NCBI RefSeq assembly: GCF_050304635.1
Contig: NZ_JBNLDX010000012.1
Origin: Haliangium sp.
GTDB taxonomy: Bacteria > Myxococcota_A > Polyangia > Haliangiales > Haliangiaceae
Length of the DNA stretch: 64,000 bases
Direction: 5' to 3' (one strand)
Made by a program: the position numbers and the translations under genes. This document shows positions 6,036-64,000 of the stretch, piece after piece. Numbering within the stretch: the stretch's first letter is position 1; every line of letters begins with the position of its first letter. Under the pieces are notes generated by a model, which saw only the letters and a program-made list of their open reading frames with translations, had not been told where the DNA came from and searched no databases.

Positions 6036-8966
<2,931 letters not shown>

Positions 8967-8987: not shown

Positions 8988-10301
<1,314 letters not shown>

Positions 10302-11709: not shown

Positions 11710-13152
11710 TCAGGCCGGGCGCCGGCCCGGGCCCACACGCGCCACCGGCAGACGCGAGCGGGTGCGCGCCACCAGCATCAAGGTGACCAGCGCGACCGCG
11801 AGCTCCAGGGCCCACAGCAGCCCGCCGGCCATGCTGGGAAGGTGCCCGCCGAGCGCGTCCACGGCCCACGCTGCGGCGTCGGCGAGCCCCATGAGCGCGC
11901 ACCAACTCGCCCACCGCGGTCCCCGTGGTCGGGCACCCACCAGCGCGGCCCCGGCCCACAGCGCGAGCCCGGCGAGCGCGGCCACGCGCCAGGGCACGGC
12001 GTCCATCGCTGCCCACGGCTCCAGCGGGCCATGGGCGGCCGCCGCCGGCAGCCCGGCCAGCCACTGCCCGAGCGCGATCGCGCCCAAACCGAGCAGCACC
12101 CAGCCCAGGGCCTGCAGGCCGCTGTCGGGTCCACAGCCGCCGGCGCCGCCGCTCTCCTCGGCGAGGTAGGCCTCGAAGCGGCGCTCGCTGTACAGTCGCA
12201 GCAGGATGGTCGGCCACGAGCGCAGGGCCATGCCGGCCCCGGCCGTGGTCAGGGCGGCCGCGGCGATGTCGCCGGTGGCGGCCAGAACCGCGATCCCGAG
12301 GATTACGGCGGCCGCGCGCGCGCTCGCCCGCGCCACCGCGCAGTAGCGCACGCCAGGGGCCATTCGGGTGTCGGCGTCGTGGCCGCGGAGGGCGCCGAGC
12401 CCGGCCCGGATGTGGATCACCGACCGGGCCAGGAGCAGGGCGGCCGCGGCGATGCCGGCCCAACGGGCCAGGGCGACGCTGTCGAGCGACCAGGCCCCGG
12501 GGCCGAGCGGCCCTGTGCAGGTCAGGCCGTGCAGCATTGCCATGCCCTGGGGCGCGGCCACGTCCCGGGTGCCGTCACCGAGGGTCAACACCGCCATGAA
12601 CACGGCCGCCCCGGCCGCGCCGACGCCGCCGAGCACGGCCATGAGCACGGCCGCGCCGGCCAAGTCTCGGTCCGCGCTCACCGGGCGGCTCGGCATGAGC
12701 GCGCGCGCGGGTTGCTGCGCGCGCACGCGCGGGAGCGACACATACACCAGCAAGACCGCGGGCCAGGCCATGAGCAGCATCGCCACCCGGGCCAGGGTGG
12801 TGGCGTCGAGGTGCTCGCGCAGCAGCAGCACCATGACCGCGCTGTGACACGCTGCCACCCATACATAGGTGGCGATGGCGCGTCTGGGGCTGGTGTCGGT
12901 CGCGTACAGCACGACGTTGCCGGCGGCGCGCTGGAAGGCCGCCCGGACCCCGTACAGCAGGGCGAAGAAGAACACCACTTGGCTGCCGTGGCCGCCCTGG
13001 GCCGCGGCCGGCACCGCTGCCAGCAGCGCCACGACGATCCCGGTTCCGCCGCCGAGCTGCATCAGCAAGCCCAGGCTGCCGAGACCGAAAGCCGCCGGCT
13101 CGCTCGCGCCGACGGCTGGGCGCTGTCGTGCTTGGCTCGCTGATGGTGTCAT
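11710..13152 (-). CDS. Polytopic membrane protein (possible transporter), function unknown
   Basis: ORF 11710..13176(-) trimmed to Met 13152. About 12 hydrophobic helices. No catalytic motif recognised. Confidence 0.45.
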   Translation of the reverse strand: MTPSASQARQRPAVGASEPAAFGLGSLGLLMQLGGGTGIVVALLAAVPAAAQGGHGSQVVFFFALLYGVRAAFQRAAGNVVLYATDTSPRRAIATYVWVAACHSAVMVLLLREHLDATTLARVAMLLMAWPAVLLVYVSLPRVRAQQPARALMPSRPVSADRDLAGAAVLMAVLGGVGAAGAAVFMAVLTLGDGTRDVAAPQGMAMLHGLTCTGPLGPGAWSLDSVALARWAGIAAAALLLARSVIHIRAGLGALRGHDADTRMAPGVRYCAVARASARAAAVILGIAVLAATGDIAAAALTTAGAGMALRSWPTILLRLYSERRFEAYLAEESGGAGGCGPDSGLQALGWVLLGLGAIALGQWLAGLPAAAAHGPLEPWAAMDAVPWRVAALAGLALWAGAALVGARPRGPRWASWCALMGLADAAAWAVDALGGHLPSMAGGLLWALELAVALVTLMLVARTRSRLPVARVGPGRRPA

Positions 13153-52975: not shown

Positions 52976-53967
52976 CCCAGCCCCAACCGCGTCTCCTCGT
53001 GTTCGCCGGCCGCCGACGCCGCGCCGGCGGCTCGCTCGCAATCTCCCTCGTGGGGGTCCTCGTCGGGATCTTCGCATGGGCCTGGCCGGCCCCGGCCCGG
53101 GCCCAGGAGTTGGCCGGCATCGACCTGGCCCGGCTCATCGAGCAGGTCAGCCCGGCCGGGCTGGTGGTGTCGCTGATCGTCATCGCCATCGCGCTGCTGG
53201 TACTCCGCTTCATCACTGGTCTGACCGACTCCCTGAGCAAGCGGTTCTCGGACCGGCGCCTGATGCTGCAGCAGATCAGCACCGTGCTTCGGTTCATCAT
53301 CTACGTGCTCACCAGCATCCTGGTGGTGAGCGCGTCGATTCGACTCGAGGGCCAGGTCCTGGTCGCGCTGGCGGTGGCCATCGGCTTCGCGCTCAAGGAC
53401 CTGGCGTCGTCGGTGCTGGCCGGCATCATCATCCTCTTCGATCGGCCCTTTCAAGTCGGTGACCGTGTCACCGTCGCCGGCCACTACGGCGAGATCCTCG
53501 CCATCGGGCTGCGCTCCGTGCGTCTGGTCACCCTCGACGACTCGCTGGTGACCATCCCGAACAATCGTTTTCTCACCGAAGCGGTGGTGTCGGGCAACGC
53601 CGGCGCGCTCGACATGCAGATCGTCATGGACTTCTACGTCGCCATCGACAGCGACCTGCGCACCGCCAAGCGCATCGTATACGAGGCGGTTCGGACCAGC
53701 CGCTTCGTCTACCTGGAAAAGCCAGTCGTAGTGCTGGTGACCGATATCATCGAGTCGTCCTACTTCGCGACACGGCTGCGTGCGAAGGCTTACGTGCTCG
53801 ACGTGCGCTATGAGAAGCTGTTCGCGTCGGATGTAACCGAGCGGGTCAAAATGGCGTACCTCGACCAGGGGATTCGCCCTCCCTCGGTGCTTCACCGCGG
53901 CACCGACGCCAGCCGCCAGGCACCTGCGCACCCGCCCGCGCCGGTTGCAAGTTCATCTCCCGAGTGA
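52972..53967 (+). CDS. MscS-family mechanosensitive ion channel
   Basis: Three TM helices followed by ILFDRPFQVGDRVTVAGHYGEILAIGLRSVRLVTLDDSLVTIPNNRF, the canonical MscS TM3/beta-domain signature. Translationally coupled to the upstream ATPase gene. Confidence 0.9.
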   Translation: MTQPQPRLLVFAGRRRRAGGSLAISLVGVLVGIFAWAWPAPARAQELAGIDLARLIEQVSPAGLVVSLIVIAIALLVLRFITGLTDSLSKRFSDRRLMLQQISTVLRFIIYVLTSILVVSASIRLEGQVLVALAVAIGFALKDLASSVLAGIIILFDRPFQVGDRVTVAGHYGEILAIGLRSVRLVTLDDSLVTIPNNRFLTEAVVSGNAGALDMQIVMDFYVAIDSDLRTAKRIVYEAVRTSRFVYLEKPVVVLVTDIIESSYFATRLRAKAYVLDVRYEKLFASDVTERVKMAYLDQGIRPPSVLHRGTDASRQAPAHPPAPVASSSPE

Positions 53968-53971
53968 GACA

Positions 53972-56900
53972 ATGGGAGACGCGCACTTCGCGTCGCTGCC
54001 AAGCTCAAACGACTCCGTATTTGCCATGACCGACCAGGGTGACGAACGTTCGTTGCCGAGACGGGCCACCTCTACGGCCGCCGACCTCGATGACGACACG
54101 GTAGTCGAGGACCAACCAGCGCCGGACGAGCGGACGTGGGCCGCGCTGCACGCCAAGCTCGCCAGCGGTGCGCGCGCGCGTGCCGCGCGCCGGGAGGACG
54201 CGCTCCGGCGGGAAGCCGCCACCCAAAAAGACCCGACCCACGAGGACGTCACCCAGGAAGACGAGACCGTGCGCCGGAACCCGGTCTCTCCTCACGAGGA
54301 GCCCACCCGGCGCTACGGAGAGCCACGGGCGAGGAACCTCCGCGCCCGCGATCGCCTCGCCAGCGAAACCTACGACGTCGACATCGACGCGCCCACCGGG
54401 GTGCTCGCGCGCCCGCGTCCGTATCGAGTCGTACGATCGGACGACAAAGAGCTCGAAGGCGGGCGGCCCGGGCAGCCACCGCCGGCGGCGTTGCCGTCCC
54501 TGGCCGACGTGGTGACCTCGTTCGAGTCGCCGGCGGAGCCCGGCACCCGCGCGACGGCGGTGGCCGAACCTTCGACTCTGTCGATCTCGGTCGAGTCGCT
54601 GCCCGACGTCGAGGATCGGCTCGGTTCGGAGCTCAGTCTGGTCCAGGCGACCGGTGAAATCCCCACGGTGACCGCCGTGGCCGGGCGTCACGGCGAATAT
54701 CTGCCGGTGGGGACGAGCGTAGGGCGGTACGTGGTGCTGGGCGCCCTAGCCGTCGGCGGCATGGGCGTGGTCTACACTGCCTACGACCCCGAGTTGGACC
54801 GCAAGGTGGCCCTCAAGCTGATGCGGGTGAACCCCGGACGATCGGTCGACAAGGCCTGCGCCCGGCTCCTGCGTGAGGCCCAGGCTTTGGCCCGGTTGGC
54901 CCACCCCAACGTCATCGCGGTATACGACGCTGGGCGCTTGGGCGAGCAGGTGTTCGTGGCTATGGAGTTAGTCGAGGGCGTCACTCTGCGTCGTTGGCTC
55001 GACGAGGAGACCCCGGCGCTGAGCGACATCCTGGCCGCGTTCTGGGCCGCGGGGCAGGGCCTGGCGGCTGCTCACGCGGCCGGCCTGGTCCACCGCGACT
55101 TCAAGCCCGAGAACGTCATGATGGGCGCTGACGGGCGTGTGCGCGTGCTCGATTTCGGTCTGGCCCGAGCGGCGCAGCAAGCCGCCGACTCGTCGCTGCC
55201 CGGCTCGGACTCGCCACCGGACGCGGAGGTCGCGGGCGCCGGCGTAGAGACCGCGCCCGAGCCGGCCGCCGAGGTCGGTGTCGACACCACCGTCGACGAC
55301 GACGCGCACGGAGAGGATCCGCACGCGCCGTTGGCGCAGTTCAACCCGGCGGCCGTGGAGAGGCCCGGCACCCTCACCCGAGCCGGGGTGTCGAACCTCG
55401 CGTCTCGGCGCGTCCTCCACAACCCCTTGACCGCTCACGGCGCGCTGGTGGGGACCCCCGGGTACATGGCTCCGGAGCAGTACGGCGGCGGGAGCACGGA
55501 CGCACGCACCGATCAGTTCTCGTTCTGCGTGGCCTTGTACGAGGCCGTGTGTGGGCATAGGCCATTTTCGGGCACCCGTCCCGAAGAGGTTGCTTATCAG
55601 ATGGCGTCGGGCCAGATCGAGCCACCACCGCCGCAGGCGCGGACCCCGGCCTGGCTGGTGACCATGATGATCCGTGGCCTGTCGGCTGAACCCGAGCAGC
55701 GCTACCCCTCGATGAATCACCTCCTGGCCGACCTCGAGCACGGCATGCAGCGGGGCGCGCGGCTGGTGCGCATGGGCACGGCCATCGGCATCGCCGCCCT
55801 CGTGATGATGGTGGTCGTGGGCGCGGCCTTTCTGGTTACGGGTGAGCGTGCCCGCAGCGCGGCCTTGTGCCAAGGCAGCGAGGAGCGCCTGGCCACGGTC
55901 TGGAACGACGACCTGGCCGCCACCGTGGCTGCGGGCTTCGCGGCCAGCGGGCGCCCACACGCCAGCGAGGCCTTCGAGCAGGTGGCGCGTGAGATCGAGA
56001 CCTACGGCCGCGATTGGGTCGCCATCCGCGTCGACACCTGCGAAGCCACTCACATCCGCGGCGAGCGCTCGGAGGCCATGCTCGACCTGAGCATGAGCTG
56101 CCTCGATCGCCGCTTGGGCACCCTGCGCGCCCTCACCGGCGTGTTCGTGCGCGAGATCGGCGACGACGGCGGCCTCGACGGCGCCGTGGTCGATCGTGCC
56201 CTGGGCGCGGTCCGACAGTTGCCGGGGCTGCGCGGCTGCACCGATGAGCTGGCGCTGCGCGACACCTACCCGATGCCGGGCGATCCCGAGCTGCGCCAGG
56301 CCATCGCGACCCTCACTGAGGACGTCGACGACGTCGAGGCCCGGATCCAGATCGGTCAGTATCGGGCGGTGTCGGAGTCGCTGGCGAGGCTGGTACAGCG
56401 CGCCGATGAGCTCGACTTCCCGCCTTTGCAGGCGCGCACACGCTATCTGTCGGGCCAGACACAGCACGCCCTGGGCAACCTGAGCAGCGCCGAGATCAGG
56501 TTCCACGAGGCGGTCGGCATGGCGGCCGAGGCCCGTGACGATCGCCTGCTGGCGGCGCTGTGGACCAAGCTCATGTGGCTGGTGGGCGCGGGTCAGGGAC
56601 GTTATCAAGAGGCGCTGCGCATGCGTCCCATGGCGGCGGCGTCGATCTCGCGGGCGGGGGGCGACGGCGCCTTGGAGGCCGACTTGCTCGCCCACGCCGG
56701 CATGCTCTTGGCGCGGCTGGGCGAGAACGCCGAGGCCGAGTCGATGCTGCGCCGGGCGGTCGACCTGGGCACGGCGACCCTCGGCGCCGACCACCCCCAG
56801 GTGTCCAAGTACATGAGCTTTCTGGGCGAGCTGTACTTCGCCCAGGCGGACTACGACATGGCCTTGGAGTCCCAAGAGCGCTTGATCGAGACCACCCAAG

Positions 56901-57991
56901 ACGTGTGCGGCGCCGAGCACCTGTTCTTGGTCGAGCCCCTGATCAGCATCGGCCGCATCCACACCGAGCAGAGTCGCTTCCAGGAGGCCCTGGGCCGCTT
57001 CCAGCAGGCCGCCGCCATCGAGCGCGCCAACCTCGGCGACGACGCCCCCGGCATGGCTCGGCACCTGCTGGACATCGGCCTGGCCCAGCTCATGCTTGGC
57101 GATCACGACGCCGCCGAGAAGGCCCTGGACCAAGCCTGGCAGATCGCCGATCGCGCCTACCCGGCGGATCATCCCCGCCTGGCCGAGGTGCTATTGGGCC
57201 GGGGGCGGCTGCACATGGCCCGTGGTCAGCTCGGCGTCGCCGAGAACGAGTTGGAGCGCGCCCGGGTGATCTGCGAGGCCACCTTCGGGCGCCGCCACGA
57301 GCGCCACGCCGAGGCCGTGTGGCACCTTGGGGCCGTGGCCCTGGCCCGGGGCGCTCTCGACCTCGCCGAGGAGCGGTTCCGCGAGGCGCTCGCCGTCCGC
57401 GAGGCGTTGCTCGCGCCCGATCACCCCGCGGTGGCCGAGGCCCTGCACGGGCTGGGTCGCACGCTCGTGGCCACTGGCGCTTATGATCAGGCCGAGGCCG
57501 CGCTGCAGCGGGCGTTGTCGATCTACGAGCGCCGCGAGGAAGGCGAAGGCGCGCGTGCGGCGGCTGTGCTCGCCGATCTAGGCGCGATGTGGGCCGCCCA
57601 GGGCGAGCACGCGTCGGCGCTCGACCAACTCTCGCGCGCGCTTGCGCTGAAGGAGCGCGTGCTCGGCGCGGACCACCCCGACCTGGCGGCGACCCTCACC
57701 GCATTGGGGCGGGTCCACCTTGCGCTCGGCGACCCCGAGGTCGCCGCTGTGTCGCTGCGACGGGCGATGACGATCCGCGAGGCCCGGCCCGGTCCGGCCC
57801 TGGCGCTGGCCCGCACCCGCCTCGCCCTGGCCCGCGCGCTGTGTGCGGCCCGGCTGTCCGAGTCAGACCTGAGCGAGGCCCGCAAGCTGGCGACGCGCGC
57901 GCGCGCTGAGCTACTCGAGGCCGACATCGAGAGTCGGCCCCAGAGTCGTCTCGCCGCCCAACTCGACGCCGTGCTGACACAGTGCCGCTGA
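53972..57991 (+). CDS. Ser/Thr kinase - single TM - large TPR-repeat domain protein
   Basis: ATG 53972, 4 nt after the MscS stop. Kinase: GGMGVVYTA, VALKLM, LVHRDFKPENVMM, DFGLAR, GTPGYMAPE. TM GTAIGIAALVMMVVVGAAFLV. About 700 aa of TPR-like repeats (LAEVLLGRGRLHMARGQLGVAENELERA, etc.). Confidence 0.85.
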   Translation: MGDAHFASLPSSNDSVFAMTDQGDERSLPRRATSTAADLDDDTVVEDQPAPDERTWAALHAKLASGARARAARREDALRREAATQKDPTHEDVTQEDETVRRNPVSPHEEPTRRYGEPRARNLRARDRLASETYDVDIDAPTGVLARPRPYRVVRSDDKELEGGRPGQPPPAALPSLADVVTSFESPAEPGTRATAVAEPSTLSISVESLPDVEDRLGSELSLVQATGEIPTVTAVAGRHGEYLPVGTSVGRYVVLGALAVGGMGVVYTAYDPELDRKVALKLMRVNPGRSVDKACARLLREAQALARLAHPNVIAVYDAGRLGEQVFVAMELVEGVTLRRWLDEETPALSDILAAFWAAGQGLAAAHAAGLVHRDFKPENVMMGADGRVRVLDFGLARAAQQAADSSLPGSDSPPDAEVAGAGVETAPEPAAEVGVDTTVDDDAHGEDPHAPLAQFNPAAVERPGTLTRAGVSNLASRRVLHNPLTAHGALVGTPGYMAPEQYGGGSTDARTDQFSFCVALYEAVCGHRPFSGTRPEEVAYQMASGQIEPPPPQARTPAWLVTMMIRGLSAEPEQRYPSMNHLLADLEHGMQRGARLVRMGTAIGIAALVMMVVVGAAFLVTGERARSAALCQGSEERLATVWNDDLAATVAAGFAASGRPHASEAFEQVAREIETYGRDWVAIRVDTCEATHIRGERSEAMLDLSMSCLDRRLGTLRALTGVFVREIGDDGGLDGAVVDRALGAVRQLPGLRGCTDELALRDTYPMPGDPELRQAIATLTEDVDDVEARIQIGQYRAVSESLARLVQRADELDFPPLQARTRYLSGQTQHALGNLSSAEIRFHEAVGMAAEARDDRLLAALWTKLMWLVGAGQGRYQEALRMRPMAAASISRAGGDGALEADLLAHAGMLLARLGENAEAESMLRRAVDLGTATLGADHPQVSKYMSFLGELYFAQADYDMALESQERLIETTQDVCGAEHLFLVEPLISIGRIHTEQSRFQEALGRFQQAAAIERANLGDDAPGMARHLLDIGLAQLMLGDHDAAEKALDQAWQIADRAYPADHPRLAEVLLGRGRLHMARGQLGVAENELERARVICEATFGRRHERHAEAVWHLGAVALARGALDLAEERFREALAVREALLAPDHPAVAEALHGLGRTLVATGAYDQAEAALQRALSIYERREEGEGARAAAVLADLGAMWAAQGEHASALDQLSRALALKERVLGADHPDLAATLTALGRVHLALGDPEVAAVSLRRAMTIREARPGPALALARTRLALARALCAARLSESDLSEARKLATRARAELLEADIESRPQSRLAAQLDAVLTQCR

Positions 57992-59428: not shown

Positions 59429-61462
59429 ATGGCAGAACGAGACATTCGCGAACGCGACATCCTGGTTGCCCCCAACGAGTACGCCTACGTGCAGGACCTC
59501 ACCAAGGGAGACATCGTCCTCTACGTCGGCCCCACCAAGATCAGCCTGTCCAACACCGAGCGCATGATCATCCTGCGCGACGGCCGCTTCGTGCCCGTGC
59601 GCGGCGACGAGGCCGGGCTGGGGGTACACAAGTTCGTCGCGGCCTCATCATCGCAGTACATCATCCTCGAGAACCCGCCCCAGGACCCCGACGACAAGCC
59701 GGTCAAGGGCGCAAACTCGGCCATCCCGCTCCGCTTCGGGCGCAAGGTCGTCGTGCCCGGCCCGGCCGAGTTCCCGCTCTGGCCCGGGCAGCGGGCCCAG
59801 GTCATCGACGGCCACGAGCTGCGCCTGGACCAGTACCTCGTCGTCCGTGTGTACGACGATATGGGCGACGGCGAGCCGATCGGCACCGAGCACATCATCT
59901 GCGGCACTGACGTGAGCTTCTACATCCCGCCCAGCGGCCTGGAGGTGGTGCCCAACCGCAACGGCAGCTACGTGCGCCGGGCCTGGCGTATGGAGCGCAA
60001 CAAGGGCCTGCACCTGCGCGTGCGCGCGCCCTTCGAGGTCGGCCCCGCCGCGCAGGTGCCCGAGGGCCGATACCTGGCCGGGCAGGACATCTTCCTGCGC
60101 GACCGCGAGGGCATGTTTTTCCCCTCCGACAACCTGGACGTCGTGGGCGAGGTGGCTCCGATCCCGCTGGCCGAAAACGAGGCCATCTACGCGCGCGAGT
60201 TGGGCACGGGCAAGCTCACCACCGTCGAGGGTCCGGTGAACTACCTGGTCGATCCCACCCGCGAGGAACTGGTCACGCGTCGGCTCGACGAGCGCCGGGC
60301 GGTGCTGTTCCGGCTCGACACCGACAGCCGCGACCCCAACCGGGCGTGGTCGATCTACGTGCCCCCGAGCACAGCGGTGATGATCACGGCCAAGAACAAG
60401 CGCGAGGTGGTGAGCGGGCCCCAGACCCGCATCCTGCACTACGACGAGGAGCTCGAGGTTCTGACCTTATCGACCGGGCGACCGAAGAGCGACGAGGAGC
60501 TCTTGCCCACCTGCTTCTTGCAGGTACAGGGCAACAAGGTGTCGGACCTGGTCCGGGTCAAGACCTCCGACCACGTCGGGCTCGAGATCCTGCTGTCGTA
60601 TCGAGTGTCGTTCGTGGGCGACTCCGAGCGCTGGTTCAACGTCAAGGACTATGTCGGCCTGCTATGCGACCACCTCGGTTCGATCATCCGCGCGGCCGCG
60701 CGGACGAGTTCGATCGAGACCTTCCACGGCACCAGCACTGACATCTTGCGCACCGCCATCCTGGGCGCGCGCGGCGACGACGGCGAGCGCGAGGGGCGGC
60801 ACTTCAAGGAGAACGGGATGTGGGTCTACGACGTCGAGGTGCTCGACGTGCGCATCCTGGACCAGGACGTCGAGCGCATGCTGCAGGAGGCCCAGCGCAT
60901 GGCGATCGTCTCGGCGATCACGCGCAGGCAGGAGGAGCTGCGACTGGGCGACGAGAACCTCAAGGAGTCGGTCAACCGAGAGATCTACGGCGCCCAGATG
61001 GAGACCCTGGCCAAGGCTGCCGAGCACGAGGCCGTGAGCCGCACCGTGGAGCTGGCGCGGATCGGGACCATCATCGAGCGCGACCGCCTGGACAAGATCG
61101 GCCGGGCCGAGCACGAGGCTGAGGCCGACGCGATCCGCAGCCGGGCTCGGCTCGAGATCGCCGACCGCGAGGCCGGGTTGGCGCGGGAGGCCCTGGCCGC
61201 GCGCTCGGCGGCCTTTCGCGAGCAGATGGAGGCGCTGCAGCCCGAGCTCATCGCGACCCTCAAGGGCCTGGCTGGGCAGCAGCTCGCCGGCGCTTTGTCC
61301 AAGAACCTGTCGCCGCTGGCCATCCTCGGCGGCGAGAGCGTGGCCGAGGTGGCCGCGCGCTTGCTCGACCGTCTGCCCCTGGGCTCCAAGTCGGGCCCGG
61401 CGGCCGACATCCAAGGCATCCTTGGCCTGGTGCCGTCGCCGGACCAGGGCGAGTCGGCGTAG
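59429..61462 (+). CDS. Major vault protein (MVP) homolog: N-terminal MVP repeats + SPFH/band-7-like shoulder domain + coiled-coil cap helix + disordered tail
   Basis: 677 aa. ILVAPNEYAYVQDLTKGDIVLYVGPTKISLSNTERMI aligns to eukaryotic MVP [37 protein letters not shown]. Further matches PLAENEAIYARELGTGKLTTVEGP (vs [21 protein letters not shown]), VLTLSTGRPK (vs VLSLSAGRPK), DHVGLEILLSYRVSF, FHGTSTDILRTAILG, ENGMWVYDVEVLDVRILDQ, then a long Ala/Glu/Arg coiled coil. Confidence 0.8.
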   Translation: MAERDIRERDILVAPNEYAYVQDLTKGDIVLYVGPTKISLSNTERMIILRDGRFVPVRGDEAGLGVHKFVAASSSQYIILENPPQDPDDKPVKGANSAIPLRFGRKVVVPGPAEFPLWPGQRAQVIDGHELRLDQYLVVRVYDDMGDGEPIGTEHIICGTDVSFYIPPSGLEVVPNRNGSYVRRAWRMERNKGLHLRVRAPFEVGPAAQVPEGRYLAGQDIFLRDREGMFFPSDNLDVVGEVAPIPLAENEAIYARELGTGKLTTVEGPVNYLVDPTREELVTRRLDERRAVLFRLDTDSRDPNRAWSIYVPPSTAVMITAKNKREVVSGPQTRILHYDEELEVLTLSTGRPKSDEELLPTCFLQVQGNKVSDLVRVKTSDHVGLEILLSYRVSFVGDSERWFNVKDYVGLLCDHLGSIIRAAARTSSIETFHGTSTDILRTAILGARGDDGEREGRHFKENGMWVYDVEVLDVRILDQDVERMLQEAQRMAIVSAITRRQEELRLGDENLKESVNREIYGAQMETLAKAAEHEAVSRTVELARIGTIIERDRLDKIGRAEHEAEADAIRSRARLEIADREAGLAREALAARSAAFREQMEALQPELIATLKGLAGQQLAGALSKNLSPLAILGGESVAEVAARLLDRLPLGSKSGPAADIQGILGLVPSPDQGESA

Positions 61463-61492
61463 ACGCCTGCTCGGCCCGGGGCTGGCGCGCGC
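61244..61492. repeat. Copy 1 of a ~250-bp segmental duplication (MVP 3' coding end + 30 bp 3' flank)
   Basis: gagctcatcgcgaccctcaagggcctggctgggcagcagc...gagtcggcgtagacgcctgctcggcccggggctggcgcgcgcg. About 90% identical to 61969-62219. Confidence 0.8.
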
Positions 61493-61968
61493 GTGGGCGG
61501 GTAGCCCTCTGGTCCAGGGTGGGCTCTCGTCTATTCGTGGTCGACCATGGACCGTGCGACGCCCGAGTTCCGGTTGCTGTGCGCACGAGTCGGCATGGCA
61601 GCGGGGGCAAATTCGGGCTGGCACACGCGTGTACGGGATTCGATCGTCGCCGGTTCGATGCTTGCTGGGCTGGACCGGCCCAGACGAGCCCACGGCCCTA
61701 CCGGCGGACGACTCGCACGAACGCCTATCTCTCCCTCCGGTCAACGGCTCTCTCCCCCATGGCTGCCGGCGTTCACCTCGTCTCGACCTTGTCCTGGCAT
61801 CCGACTCGTCTCTGTACTCCTGCCCATCGCGGCATCGTCTCGGCCCTCCGTCCGATCTGGGTTGGTCGGAGCAGACAACGACGCCGCCTTCGGGCCGTGG
61901 GCTCGCCCGGGCCTGTGCCGTCCTCGCCTCTGCCCAGATAGGCTCTTCGCTCGGTGGGCTCTGCAGCA

Positions 61969-62219
61969 CGAGCTCATCGCGCCCCGCAAGGGCTTGGCCG
62001 GGCAGCAGCGTGCCGGCGCCTTGTCCAAGGATCTGTCGCCACTGGCCATCCTCGGCGGCGAGAGCGTGGCCGAGGTGGCCGCACGCTTGCTGGAACGCCT
62101 CCCCCTTGGACCCAAGTCCGGCCCGGCGGCCGACATCCAAGGCATCCTTGGCCTGGTGCCGTCGTCGGACCAGGGTGAGTCGGCGCAGCCGCCTGGTCGT
62201 CCCGGGGCTGGAGCGCGCG
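61969..62219 (+). pseudogene. Copy 2 of the duplication: orphan fragment encoding the last ~74 aa of the MVP-like protein (stop TAG->CAG), embedded in non-coding-looking low-GC sequence
   Basis: Encodes LIAPRKGLAGQQRAGALSKDLSPLAILGGESVAEVAARLLERLPLGPKSGPAADIQGILGLVPSSDQGESAQ inside track ORF 61547..62359, whose upstream 140 aa have no protein-like character. Confidence 0.45.
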
Positions 62220-62503
62220 GCCGACGCGGCGACGGCGTGCGGCAACTTCGGGCCAGTGAAAGCACTCACACCCTCGGAGCTCGCGTTGAGTTGTGGCTGG
62301 ATGCCGCGCTGCGTCACGAAGGTTTCGACACGTGTGTCAGCTTGGACACAGGCGCTTGAGCGATGTAACCCCCAACTGCAACAAAAGGAGCGGCCGCTCT
62401 TCCAGAGTATCTCAGGTGCCTATCTGACGGGGGTGAGAGCGATTCAGTCAGCAGTGGAACGACCGCCGCAGGTAGTTCCGCTAGCGAGATTGTCGGAGGC
62501 GGT

Positions 62504-63898
62504 GTGTATGATGCAACCGGGATGGCATTCGAGAAAGCACCTCGTCTATTCCGCGACCCAGTACACTTGCAGCTTCGCTACGAGCGGGTCGAAGACGAAC
62601 GGCACATCCCTTCACCAGCATTCGGTGACAAGCGCTTCGGCTGGGTGATGCAGCGGCTTATCGACACCCCAGTCTTCCAGAGGCTACGGCACATCCGTCA
62701 GAACGGGTTGACCAATTTAGTGTTCCATGGCGCCGAGCACTCACGTTTCAGTCACTCGATGGGTGTGGCCTATCTGGCCGGCGAGATGTACGATCGCATC
62801 TGCCGCAACATGGGTGAAGAGCCCGATGACGAGACCCGGCTGGCGACATGTGCGGCAGGACTGCTGCACGACATCGGACACGGTCCCTTCTCGCATACTC
62901 TCGAGGAGGCTCTCGATGTTCTAGGGATCGAGTTCGCTCACGAAGCGATGACCTTGCGTATCATCAGAGAGTCGGTTGTCGCCGAGACTCTGGGCCATGT
63001 CGATCAGACCTTTCCCGAACGCGTCGCCGAGTATATTAGTAAGAAGGTAAAGAAACCACATTGGAGTCACAAATTAGTGTCGAGTCAGCTCGATGCAGAT
63101 CGGCTCGATTATCTGCTGCGCGATGCAGCGGCATGCGGACTTCGCGGCCATACTTACGATTTAGCTCGTCTTTTGGATATGCTGCGGCATGTGGATGGAC
63201 AATTGGTCGGTGTGGATCGCAAGGGGTTGGAAACCGTCGAGGGATATTTGGTCGCTTTGGATCAAATGTATCGAGCCATCTACTTCCATCACACCGTGCG
63301 GGCTGCGAGCGTGCTTCTGACCTCCGTCCTTCGTCGTGCCGTCATGCTGGCAAGCAATGGAGACAAAGATGTATTCTCAACGCGAGACCGACGTCATCCA
63401 TTGAAGCGATTTTTCGACACAGGTGGACAGTGCGACCTTGAGACATATTCCCACTTGGGCGAATTCCACGTCTGGGTCCTCGTTGACGAATGGAGAGGGC
63501 ACCCGGACCCGATCCTTTCAGATCTTTCTCGGCGACTCTACGAGCGCCGTCTACCAAAGACAATACAGTTACCGGCTAAGCCCAAGCAGTCATTAGAGCT
63601 GATAGCCAAAGCTCGTGATCTCACCTGTAAGCGCATCGCCCATGTTGATGCCACATTGGTTGACTTCTACGTCGCCGTAGATGAGGCCGAGCGAACCAGC
63701 TACAAGCTGTATGACTGGCGAGAGGAGGAAAAGCCGGACGAGTCTATCTACATCTGTGAACGTAACGGCAAGAGCTGGCCTATTCACGCTTATGGTGAGA
63801 GCAAGATTATTAATGCGCTGAAGGATACCCGCTACGTCTCACGGCTGATGTTCCCGTATGAGATTCGGGACGATATGCAAGCAGGAGCACTACGATGA
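62504..63898 (+). CDS. HD-domain phosphohydrolase of the dGTPase/SAMHD1-like (COG1078) dNTP triphosphohydrolase family
   Basis: GTG start with GGAGG Shine-Dalgarno. HSRFSHSMGVAYLA, AAGLLHDIGHGPFSH, QLDADRLDYLLRDAAACGL. About 52% GC vs ~70% host background. Confidence 0.8.
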   Translation: MYDATGMAFEKAPRLFRDPVHLQLRYERVEDERHIPSPAFGDKRFGWVMQRLIDTPVFQRLRHIRQNGLTNLVFHGAEHSRFSHSMGVAYLAGEMYDRICRNMGEEPDDETRLATCAAGLLHDIGHGPFSHTLEEALDVLGIEFAHEAMTLRIIRESVVAETLGHVDQTFPERVAEYISKKVKKPHWSHKLVSSQLDADRLDYLLRDAAACGLRGHTYDLARLLDMLRHVDGQLVGVDRKGLETVEGYLVALDQMYRAIYFHHTVRAASVLLTSVLRRAVMLASNGDKDVFSTRDRRHPLKRFFDTGGQCDLETYSHLGEFHVWVLVDEWRGHPDPILSDLSRRLYERRLPKTIQLPAKPKQSLELIAKARDLTCKRIAHVDATLVDFYVAVDEAERTSYKLYDWREEEKPDESIYICERNGKSWPIHAYGESKIINALKDTRYVSRLMFPYEIRDDMQAGALR

Positions 63899-64000
63899 GT
63901 ATGTCGAGAGCAATGACTACGACGCAGGGGCTGCTCGCGCTCATTGCAGCGAACGGTGGTTGTATCGAACAGCGCATCAAAATGCAGAAGGAAGCCTACA
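63896..64000 (+). CDS. Start of an uncharacterised gene translationally coupled to the HD phosphohydrolase (runs off window)
   Basis: ATG 63896 overlaps the TGA of the HD gene (ATGA), preceded by AGGAG at -8. Open frame MSMSRAMTTTQGLLALIAANGGCIEQRIKMQKEAY to the window end. Same low GC as the HD gene. Confidence 0.4.

What the first reader, a model, noticed from the sequence alone, without database searches (positions are those of the whole stretch)
61244..62500. Segmental duplication of the MVP gene tail into a degraded, low-GC spacer
The last ~220 bp of the MVP-like gene plus ~30 bp of its 3' flank recur ~475 bp downstream at ~90% identity. In the second copy the TAG stop is mutated to CAG. 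The second copy encodes the same disordered LSPLAILGGESVAEVAARLL...GILGLVPS tail but has no credible upstream coding sequence. It is either the remnant of a deleted tandem MVP paralog or a recombination scar from insertion of the adjacent island. In eukaryotic MVP the C-terminal tail is the cap-ring and protein-interaction region, so an orphan tail peptide could in principle still be made.
Basis: seen in the sequence. Interest (0 to 1): 0.55.

Follow-up and report, generated by a model that had tools for sequence, protein, structure and literature searches.

The report
Orphaned vault-gene tail beside foreign cassette
A 263-base copy of the end of a bacterial vault-protein gene lies 463 bases downstream of the real gene, at the edge of a foreign low-GC gene cassette. 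It is a leftover of a recombination event rather than a second gene, and is ordinary except that related cassettes carry similar leftovers in two other genomes.

Summary
Window 61231-61493 recurs at 61957-62219 (263 nt, 89% identity, offset 726 nt, blastn E 2e-96). The repeat covers the last 76 codons of an MVP-like gene (59432..61462), the stop codon and 31 nt of flank. In copy 2 the stop TAG is CAG.

Both repeat boundaries are sharp. The 463-nt spacer is non-coding, matches nothing, and has host-like GC (0.68), so it is not low-GC. The GC drop (0.54-0.62) starts only after copy 2, where a foreign HD-domain gene plus a Panacea-like partner begins.

None of 61 related MVP loci has a second tail or a tandem MVP. 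Copy 2 carries four radical changes at invariant residues and lower GC3. Yet dN/dS between the copies is 0.18, so most divergence arose while both were translated.

Two of three retrievable close relatives of the HD cassette (L064, L145) are flanked by a duplicated 3' end of a different host gene.

Best reading: copy 2 is the orphaned 3' end of a diverged MVP allele, left by homology-anchored or illegitimate recombination at the cassette junction (a C-terminal-displacement-type scar). It is probably non-functional, although RefSeq annotates a 112-aa ORF over it. Interest is low to moderate.

The parts
59432..61462 (+). Intact MVP-like gene (677 aa with its start Met; identical to P0124, 'hypothetical protein [Haliangium sp.]')
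   Evidence: Pfam MVP_shoulder scores 100.6 bits and Vault_3 29.7 bits, both above cutoff. phmmer aligns residues 142-629 to residues ~285-797 of solved MVP chains. GC3 is 0.94 to the stop. P0124 is 100% identical.
61231..61493 (+). Repeat copy 1 (T): last 76 codons, TAG stop (61460-61462) and 31 nt of 3' flank of the functional gene
61494..61956 (.). 463-nt spacer: non-coding, GC 0.68, pyrimidine-rich on the + strand, origin unknown
   Evidence: No GC3 periodicity in any frame. No significant similarity to the rest of the window or to 61 related loci, nor to the non-coding flanks of the other HD cassettes. No Rfam family or tRNA. RNA fold z-score is -0.70. No promoter-like or terminator-like site.
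61957..62219 (+). Repeat copy 2 (T'): orphan MVP tail. Stop changed to CAG (62186-62188). Changes P>H, T>P, L>R, L>R at invariant residues. GC3 0.84.
   Evidence: At least 14 of 19 differences in the first 51 codons are derived on this copy relative to five outgroups.
62021..62359 (+). 112-aa ORF (TTG start) annotated in RefSeq as a hypothetical protein (P0244). It comprises codons 22-76 of copy 2 plus a 57-codon read-through.
   Evidence: The read-through part has no coding-type GC3.
62220..62503 (.). Junction and upstream region of the HD gene. GC falls from ~0.73 to ~0.58. Contains the 12-nt palindrome GAGCGGCCGCTC at 62388-62399.
62504..63898 (+). HD-domain gene (PF01966 + PF19276), GC 0.54; foreign cargo
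63895..64000 (+). Start of the partner gene (Panacea/SocA-like family), with an ATGA overlap with the HD stop; runs off the end of the window

Best explanation
Copy 2 is the orphaned 3' end of a second, diverged allele of the MVP-like gene. It comprises 76 codons, the former stop and 31 nt of flank.

Proposed mechanism (inferred). Either DNA from a related lineage carrying the HD/Panacea-like cassette directly behind its own MVP gene was joined into this chromosome, or cassette-free DNA was joined into a chromosome that already carried the cassette. In both cases one join did not resolve by clean homologous exchange inside MVP. It was an illegitimate join at 61956/61957, or a Campbell-type single crossover of a circular fragment. 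The result is two tails in tandem: one finishes the functional gene, and the other is stranded next to the cassette. The right-hand limit of the repeat (61493 / 62219) then marks the point, 31 nt past the stop, where cassette-bearing and cassette-free haplotypes stop being homologous.

Since being stranded, the orphan has lost its stop codon, gained radical replacements and lost GC3. It most likely has no function now.

Shown here: the repeat, its sharp limits, its position at the GC break, the substitution pattern, its absence from relatives, and parallel scars at two related cassettes. Inferred: the direction of transfer and the exact joining mechanism.
For: 1. The repeat is real and sharply bounded.
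2. Copy 2 ends about 25 nt before the drop from ~0.73 to 0.54-0.62 GC. The rest of the 64-kb window is 0.66-0.74.
3. dN/dS between the copies is 0.18 (Sd 15, Nd 8, Fisher p 1e-4). Differences by codon position are 5:3:15. Counting G/C sites only, 12/71 third positions changed against 3/96 first and second positions (p 0.0045). Most divergence therefore arose in translated genes, as expected for two alleles and not for decay after an in-situ duplication.
4. Later decay is visible: the stop is lost, four radical changes hit residues invariant in all relatives, and there are 9 A/T-ending codons.
5. Recurrence in L064: an 83-88-nt repeat (93-95% identical) flanks the HD + partner pair. One copy is the end of a glycosyltransferase gene. 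The other is an in-frame orphan with its own stop.
6. Recurrence in L145: a ~200-250-nt repeat flanks HD + partner + DUF5647. One copy ends an intact type IIG restriction-modification gene. The other is an in-frame orphan with its own stop. Codon-position differences are 12:13:26.
7. Dispersed repeats of this size occur only about 2-3 times per Mb in 1.13 Mb of comparable loci.
8. The cassettes share no conserved ends and no recombinase gene is visible. This fits passive, recombination-driven insertion.
9. No relative has a second tail or a tandem MVP.
10. An analogous mechanism, homology-facilitated illegitimate recombination that shifts old 3' ends downstream, has been proposed for T6SS and Rhs loci (PMC5361080).
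Against: - In L064 and L145 the two copies flank the cassette. Here both lie to its left, with an unexplained 463-nt spacer between them, so the parallel is not exact.
- The sequence beyond 64000 could not be obtained. The right end of the cassette, and any further copy, are unseen.
- The donor lineage is unsampled: no MVP closer than ~80% exists in the databases searched.
- Nearly all differences map to the copy 2 branch. Two equally constrained alleles would not predict that.
- Among more distant HD loci (30-42% identity), none of the ones with adequate flanks shows flanking repeats. The recurrence therefore rests on three loci.
- No clear microhomology at the junction could be established.
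Confidence: 0.6

Rival explanations
1. attL/attR-type repeats of a site-specific integrative element that targets the 3' end of the MVP gene and carries a surrogate 3' end, as e14 and phage 21 do at icd. Either the element has decayed to the 463-nt spacer, or copy 2 is the left att site of the HD island and a further copy lies beyond the window.
For: - The repeat covers a gene's 3' end through the stop, the classic geometry.
- Identical runs of 41-46 nt inside the repeat could serve as a core.
- L064 and L145 have the repeats on both sides of the cassette.
- Copy 2 lies ~285 nt upstream of HD, much as the L064 orphan lies ~380 nt upstream.
Against: - No integrase or recombinase gene is visible in the window's last 2.5 kb, in the 2.3-kb L064 cassette, or called in L145.
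- The duplicated gene differs in each genome (MVP, glycosyltransferase, restriction-modification gene). Repeat lengths also differ (263, ~85, ~200-250 nt).
- The cassettes share no conserved ends.
- No third tail-bearing short ORF from the source contig turned up in the protein search, which is weak evidence.
- There is no tRNA.
Confidence: 0.15
2. Remnant of a tandem MVP paralog that stayed functional for some time, and then lost everything upstream of codon 601 by deletion.
For: dN/dS of 0.18 and the long copy 2 branch would fit a redundant, faster-evolving paralog. The copies are in the same orientation and close together.
Against: - Homology ends sharply at 61957.
- The 463-nt spacer has no similarity to the MVP coding sequence or its upstream region, so deletion alone cannot produce it.
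- No tandem MVP exists in 61 related loci, including the syntenic L001.
- The repeat's right limit coincides with the island edge, which this model does not predict.
Confidence: 0.1
3. In-situ segmental duplication (slippage or template switching during repair) followed by neutral decay of the downstream copy.
For: Most differences are derived on copy 2. The stop is lost, GC3 is lower and there are radical replacements. The offset is a multiple of 3, which may be chance.
Against: The expected dN/dS is about 0.5 or more, against 0.18 observed. A mixed model with 80% of changes neutral gives a binomial p of about 0.01 by my own calculation from the counts. The model does not explain the unrelated 463-nt spacer or the recurrence at related cassettes.
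Confidence: 0.08
4. Metagenome-assembly artefact: two strain haplotypes, one with and one without the cassette, joined in series.
For: The source is a MAG contig. Two deposited versions (149,091 and 149,096 nt) differ by small indels, so the assembly is not perfect.
Against: Copy 2 is not a plausible functional allele, given the lost stop and four radical changes at invariant residues. Independent assemblies from other projects (L064, L145) show the same kind of structure.
Confidence: 0.04
5. Copy 2 is a functional mini-gene: the annotated 112-aa ORF at 62021..62359, which retains the conserved MVP C-terminal motif. It might act as a partner or decoy for the vault-like protein, or as a cassette for switching the C-terminus by recombination.
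For: - RefSeq annotates the ORF (P0244).
- All four radical substitutions lie upstream of its TTG start.
- Within it, changes are 4 conservative replacements against about 10 synonymous.
Against: - No Shine-Dalgarno-like motif is evident upstream of the TTG on reading the sequence, and there is no promoter-like site.
- The 57-codon read-through has no coding-type GC3.
- No homologue of such a mini-protein was found apart from short MVP-tail ORFs on short contigs, which may be contig-end fragments.
- There is no orphan tail in any relative.
Confidence: 0.03

Closest known systems
C-terminal displacement and orphan 3' ends in Rhs, CDI and T6SS effector loci. The proposed mechanism is homology-facilitated illegitimate recombination (Kirchberger et al. 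2017, PMC5361080; Jackson et al. 2009 as cited there).
   Same: Incoming DNA anchors in the conserved part of a resident gene. The old 3' end is shifted downstream and survives as an orphan fragment next to newly acquired cargo. The copies differ as alleles do.
   Different: MVP is not a polymorphic toxin, and its tail is conserved rather than variable. No immunity gene is involved. Only one orphan is present, not an array. Both tails here lie on the same side of the cargo.
Integration of e14 and phage 21 into icd in E. coli, with a duplicated, slightly divergent 3' end (the icdC pseudogene). Cited from my own knowledge, not checked here.
   Same: A gene's 3' end of ~150-260 nt is duplicated. 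One copy completes the gene and the other is a pseudogene. The differences are mainly synonymous.
   Different: Those elements encode an integrase and always use the same gene. Here no recombinase is seen, and the related cassettes sit beside three different genes.
Homology-facilitated illegitimate recombination in transformable bacteria (de Vries & Wackernagel 2002 and Prudhomme et al. 2002, as cited in PMC5361080; also PMC3240628).
   Same: One homologous anchor plus one illegitimate join traps foreign DNA beside a conserved gene.
   Different: Experimental events usually delete host DNA rather than duplicate it. No experiment exists for Myxococcota.
Bacterial MVP homologues of Myxococcales and related groups (Sokolskyi 2019, bioRxiv 10.1101/872010).
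   Same: The gene at 59432..61462 belongs to this group, with a shoulder/band-7-like domain, MVP repeats and a C-terminal coiled coil.
   Different: That work does not describe partial duplications. The function of bacterial MVPs is unknown.
PanAT toxin-antitoxin pairs with a Panacea-domain antitoxin (Kurata et al. 2022, PMC8832971).
   Same: The cargo is a two-gene operon with a 4-nt overlap. A partner-family member passes the Panacea Pfam threshold. It sits in defence-island neighbourhoods.
   Different: The terms 'HD domain' and 'phosphohydrolase' do not occur in that paper's main text. The window's own partner is truncated, and its close relatives do not reach the Pfam threshold.

Membership tests
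Major vault protein family (the intact gene) | MVP shoulder domain | tested here: met
   PF11978 scores 100.6 bits (cutoff 25), residues 368-477.
Major vault protein family (the intact gene) | MVP repeat domains | tested here: met
   PF17795 Vault_3 scores 29.7 bits (cutoff 28.8). Vault_4 is below cutoff. phmmer aligns residues 142-629 to solved MVP chains, E 4e-27.
Major vault protein family (the intact gene) | Full set of nine N-terminal repeats and a cap-ring equivalent to eukaryotic MVP | tested here: not met
   The protein is 677 aa against 861-893 aa. The alignment starts at about residue 285 of the solved chains and ends at query residue 604-629, so the duplicated tail (601-676) is largely unaligned.
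Major vault protein family (the intact gene) | Assembly into vault particles | not testable with these tools
   Needs purification and electron microscopy.
C-terminal displacement / homology-anchored recombination scar | The orphan comprises the 3' end of the gene through the stop position plus native flank | tested here: met
   76 codons, the former stop and 31 nt of flank, 27/31 identical.
C-terminal displacement / homology-anchored recombination scar | Abrupt 5' limit of the orphan with unrelated DNA upstream (illegitimate join) | tested here: met
   Local alignment left of 61957 is no better than shuffles. The spacer has no homology.
C-terminal displacement / homology-anchored recombination scar | The copies differ like alleles evolved under coding constraint | tested here: met
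   dN/dS 0.18, p 1e-4; codon positions 5:3:15.
C-terminal displacement / homology-anchored recombination scar | Horizontally acquired DNA directly adjacent | tested here: met
   GC 0.54-0.62 from ~62245 onward against 0.66-0.74 elsewhere. The HD gene's best non-self hit is 59-60% identical.
C-terminal displacement / homology-anchored recombination scar | Acquired DNA lies between the functional end and the orphan | tested here: inconclusive
   Only the 463-nt spacer of unknown origin lies between the copies, and the cassette lies beyond the orphan. In L064 and L145 the cassette is between the copies.
C-terminal displacement / homology-anchored recombination scar | Identifiable donor allele or lineage | not testable with these tools
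   No MVP above ~80% identity other than the source itself.
Site-specific integrative element (att repeats in a gene's 3' end) | Integrase or recombinase gene in the element | tested here: not met
   None in window 61494-64000. None in the L064 cassette (HD + partner only). None called in L145. The window ends at 64000, so this applies only to what is visible.
Site-specific integrative element (att repeats in a gene's 3' end) | Same target gene or sequence at independent insertions | tested here: not met
   The targets are MVP, a glycosyltransferase gene and a type IIG restriction-modification gene. The cassettes share no conserved ends.
Tandem gene duplicate (paralog remnant) | Residual homology upstream of the fragment to the gene body or promoter | tested here: not met
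Tandem gene duplicate (paralog remnant) | A second gene copy in related genomes | tested here: not met
   0 of 61 loci.
Diversity-generating retroelement (template and variable repeat at a gene's 3' end) | Mismatches confined to adenines of one copy, with a reverse transcriptase nearby | tested here: not met
   Substitutions are of all types. No reverse transcriptase is seen in the visible sequence.
PanAT toxin-antitoxin pair (the adjacent cargo) | Panacea (PF13274) domain in the partner | tested here: inconclusive
   Only the L065 partner passes, at 28.1 bits (cutoff 25.7). It is 37% identical to the L064 partner. The close partners give no hit.
PanAT toxin-antitoxin pair (the adjacent cargo) | Conserved two-gene operon | tested here: met
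   HD + partner are adjacent in the window, L062, L064, L145, L065, L066 and others. The ATGA overlap is present in the window and L064.
PanAT toxin-antitoxin pair (the adjacent cargo) | Toxicity of one gene, neutralised by the other | not testable with these tools
   Needs expression experiments.

The most novel reading that the evidence does not exclude
HD/Panacea-like two-gene cassettes of Myxococcota are a recombinase-less mobile module. It spreads by travelling with the 3' end of whatever host gene it lies beside, and uses that piece as its homology anchor. Each insertion leaves an orphan gene tail. The orphan MVP tail here would be one such footprint, possibly still translated as the annotated 112-aa ORF.
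Probability: 0.15. Interest if true: 0.55.

Novelty: new member of a known kind. Interest (0 to 1): 0.25.

Why it matters
By itself the duplication is a small genomic scar with no likely function. Its practical value is for annotation: the 112-aa 'hypothetical protein' called over it is probably a pseudogene fragment.

It marks precisely where a foreign HD/Panacea-like cassette meets the core genome. With the parallel scars in L064 and L145, it suggests that such small defence or toxin-antitoxin cassettes can move between related myxobacteria by homology-anchored recombination rather than through their own recombinase. If a systematic survey confirmed this, orphan gene tails could serve as markers for dating and tracing cassette insertions.

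The finding gives no new information on what bacterial vault-like proteins do.

Tried and rejected
1. Retrieving the source contig beyond 64000 failed. Seven exact look-ups with MVP and HD protein variants found nothing. The source is a Haliangium sp. MAG contig of about 149 kb.
2. The genome-contig scan did not contain the source. The best relative is 78% identical.
3. The metagenome scan with an HD alignment used very general motifs and returned only relatives at 30-42% identity, so it was of little use for the close subfamily. The viral scan found nothing. Plasmid hits were 32-41% identical relatives, mostly in Firmicutes, and were not followed up.
4. The spacer is not a structured RNA or regulatory element. 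There is no Rfam hit, no tRNA, no promoter-like or terminator-like site, and the fold z-score is -0.70.
5. The spacer is not a relic of MVP, of its upstream region, or of any gene in 61 related loci. There is no significant DNA or translated similarity.
6. The non-coding flanks of four HD cassettes share no conserved element ends.
7. The 1342-aa ORF downstream of MVP in L001 is not an ortholog of the window's 1348-aa kinase, so there is no evidence of a local rearrangement.
8. A sliding-window comparison of the MVP gene with 15 relatives showed no mosaicism. The relatives are too distant to be informative.
9. The diversity-generating retroelement idea is rejected because the substitutions are not adenine-specific.
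10. The Band_7 protein next to the HD gene in L064 is not an MVP homologue (blastp E > 0.3). No conserved MVP-HD linkage is claimed.
Full report
**Observation.** The segment 61231-61493 recurs at 61957-62219. It is 263 nt long, 89% identical and has no gaps. The start-to-start offset is 726 nt, which is 242 codons. blastn gives E 1.9e-96. Copy 1 is the end of a gene at 59432..61462. Pfam identifies the product as MVP-like: MVP_shoulder at 100.6 bits and Vault_3 at 29.7 bits. It aligns to residues ~285-797 of solved major vault protein chains. The repeat covers the last 76 sense codons, the stop codon and 31 nt of 3' flank, which is 27/31 identical. In copy 2 the TAG stop is CAG at 62186-62188. 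The gap between the copies is 463 nt. Outside the repeat, similarity falls to background on both sides (identity profile). The spacer is not low-GC: it is 0.676, against 0.685 for the MVP gene. The low-GC DNA begins only about 25 nt after copy 2.

**What surrounds it.**
- The window is uniformly 0.66-0.74 GC, except for its last ~1.75 kb.
- That last stretch holds an HD-domain gene (62504..63898; PF01966 + PF19276; GC 0.54). It also holds the first 35 codons of a partner gene that overlaps the HD stop by ATGA.
- The 463-nt spacer shows no GC3 periodicity in any frame.
- The spacer matches no Rfam family and contains no tRNA.
- It has no promoter-like or terminator-like site, and its RNA fold is no more stable than shuffles, z -0.70.
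- It has no detectable similarity to the rest of the window, to 61 related MVP loci, or to the non-coding flanks of other HD cassettes.

**Source and relatives.** The MVP and HD proteins are 100% identical to proteins of a Haliangium sp. MAG contig of 149,091 or 149,096 nt. Its DNA could not be retrieved. The nearest other MVP genes are 76-80% identical. L001 is syntenic upstream, sharing the tryptophan 2,3-dioxygenase gene and the genes before it. The DNA downstream of MVP differs in every relative examined. None of 61 related loci has a second tail copy or a tandem MVP within 10 kb.

**Substitution pattern.** Across the 76 codons there are 13 synonymous and 8 non-synonymous codon differences. 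By codon position the differences are 5:3:15 (chi-square p 0.005). Nei-Gojobori dN/dS is 0.18 (Fisher p 1e-4). Restricting to G/C sites, 12/71 third positions changed against 3/96 first and second positions (p 0.0045), so base-composition bias does not explain the excess. Most of the divergence therefore accumulated while both sequences were being translated.

Copy 2 also shows clear decay:
- Its stop codon is lost.
- P>H, T>P, L>R and L>R fall at residues invariant in all relatives.
- It has nine A/T-ending codons (GC3 0.84 against 0.94).
- At least 14 of 19 differences in the first 51 codons are derived on the copy 2 branch, judged against five outgroups.

An in-situ duplication followed by immediate neutral decay would give dN/dS of about 0.5 or more, so it fits poorly. 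The best fit is a diverged allele, or a long-lived paralog, that was orphaned late. The length of the copy 2 branch is not fully explained.

**Parallel cases.** The HD gene has thousands of homologues, and the closest outside the source are 57-60% identical. Three of these could be read with their surroundings.
- **L064.** HD + partner has lower GC than its flanks. It is bracketed by 6781-6863 and 9172-9254 (83 nt at 95%, or 88 nt at 93%). The right copy is the end of a glycosyltransferase gene on the minus strand. The left copy is an in-frame orphan ending in its own stop (...FTRLTP* against ...FTRLPPG*) and lies ~380 nt upstream of HD.
- **L145.** HD + partner + a DUF5647 gene is bracketed by 9681-9929 and 12281-12529. 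The left copy ends an intact type IIG restriction-modification gene. The right copy is an in-frame orphan with its own stop. The 3' 135 nt are ~94% identical and the 5' part is ~60-70% identical. Codon-position differences are 12:13:26.
- **L062.** The cassette sits inside a larger low-GC island and the contig ends 1.4 kb after it. No repeat was seen.

In 1.13 Mb of comparable loci, dispersed direct repeats of 75 nt or more at 85% identity or more, with a gap over 400 nt, occur only three times, and one of those is the window's own. The association is therefore unlikely to be chance. It does not extend to more distant HD relatives (30-42% identity): among 83 HD loci, only L064 showed a flanking repeat. 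The cassettes share no conserved ends and contain no visible recombinase gene.

**Interpretation.** The most economical reading is a recombination scar of the 'C-terminal displacement' kind. DNA from a related lineage recombined at the MVP-cassette junction, with one homologous and one illegitimate join, or as a circle by a single crossover. Two tails ended up in tandem. One finishes the gene, and the other is stranded against the cassette and is now decaying. The same logic, homology-facilitated illegitimate recombination shifting an old 3' end downstream, has been proposed for T6SS effector-immunity arrays and for Rhs loci (PMC5361080). The right limit of the repeat, 31 nt past the stop, is then the point where cassette-bearing and cassette-free haplotypes diverge.

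What does not fit neatly is the geometry. In L064 and L145 the cassette lies between the copies. Here only the orphan-like 463-nt spacer does, and the cassette follows copy 2. Two explanations remain open. The incoming piece may have been MVP tail plus cassette-free flank, entering a cassette-bearing chromosome. Alternatively, the cassette may have arrived with a hitch-hiking donor tail and joined 463 nt downstream of the resident gene. The sequence beyond 64000 would decide between them.

**Rivals.**
- **Integrase-type att duplication** (as with e14 at icd; my own knowledge) is weakened by the absence of any recombinase gene in the visible sequence. It is also weakened by three different target genes and by the lack of shared cassette ends. 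It cannot be excluded, because the window ends inside the cassette.
- **Deleted tandem paralog** is disfavoured by the sharp boundary, the unrelated spacer and the absence of paralogs in relatives.
- **Assembly chimera** is unlikely, because copy 2 is not a viable allele and independent assemblies show the same kind of structure.
- **Functional mini-protein** has no support beyond two facts. RefSeq annotates a 112-aa ORF (62021..62359; P0244), and all four radical changes lie upstream of its TTG start. Its 57-codon read-through has no coding-type composition.

**The cargo.** The partner family includes a member that passes the Pfam Panacea/SocA threshold: the L065 partner scores 28.1 bits and is 37% identical to the L064 partner. 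HD + partner occur as a conserved pair in many loci. In the relatives they sit beside DUF1156/DUF499/SMC-type genes or a type IIG restriction-modification gene. The HD protein gives only weak, partial matches to dGTPase models. A PanAT-like toxin-antitoxin or defence pair is a reasonable label but is untested (PMC8832971).

**Verdict.** The feature is real and is correctly described. It is best explained as an orphaned gene end left by recombination at the border of a horizontally acquired cassette, which is a new example of a known kind of scar. Interest is low to moderate. The one point worth following is the recurrence of such scars at this cassette family.

Noticed in passing
window 62504-64000: A low-GC (0.54) HD-domain gene (PF01966 + PF19276) is followed by a partner gene starting at 63895 with an ATGA stop/start overlap. 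The partner family is Panacea/SocA-like, because a relative passes PF13274. This suggests a PanAT-type toxin-antitoxin or defence pair with an HD-domain toxin. The terms 'HD domain' and 'phosphohydrolase' do not occur in the main text of the PanA paper consulted.
   Followed up: partly
L064 6781-6863 and 9172-9254; L145 9681-9929 and 12281-12529: In two other genomes the related HD + partner cassette is flanked by a duplicated 3' end of a host gene: a glycosyltransferase gene and a type IIG restriction-modification gene. The orphan copy keeps the reading frame and has its own stop codon.
   Followed up: partly
window 53945-57991: A 1348-aa Ser/Thr kinase-TPR gene lies between two genes that are adjacent (57 nt apart) in the closest relative, L001. 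This is a gene-sized insertion or deletion difference, and it has no flanking repeats.
   Followed up: partly
window ~63860-63898 (C-terminus of the HD gene): Two deposited versions of the source contig (149,091 and 149,096 nt) give HD proteins that differ by a frameshift in the last ~12 residues. The window's version (…EIRDDMQAGALR) agrees with homologues, so the other version probably carries an indel error.
   Followed up: partly
window 62388-62399: A perfect 12-nt palindrome, GAGCGGCCGCTC, lies ~105 nt upstream of the HD start. It could be an operator of the cassette.
   Followed up: no
window 62021-62359: RefSeq annotates a 112-aa 'hypothetical protein' (P0244) made of codons 22-76 of the orphan MVP tail plus a 57-codon read-through. 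It is probably a pseudogene fragment called as a gene.
   Followed up: partly
L026 1-532 and 3404-3935: 532-nt perfect direct repeats bracket an IS66-like transposase pair in a Myxococcales MAG. This is unusually long for a target duplication.
   Followed up: no
L064 7097-7177; L062 12637-12726: Short arrays of 24-nt tandem repeats lie beside HD cassettes in two genomes, upstream of HD in one and downstream of the cassette in the other. None is present in the window.
   Followed up: no
L064 4575-6440: A 621-aa membrane-anchored Band_7/SPFH protein lies ~800 nt upstream of the HD cassette. The MVP shoulder is also band-7-like, but the two proteins share no significant sequence similarity (blastp E > 0.3), so the adjacency is probably coincidental.
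   Followed up: yes
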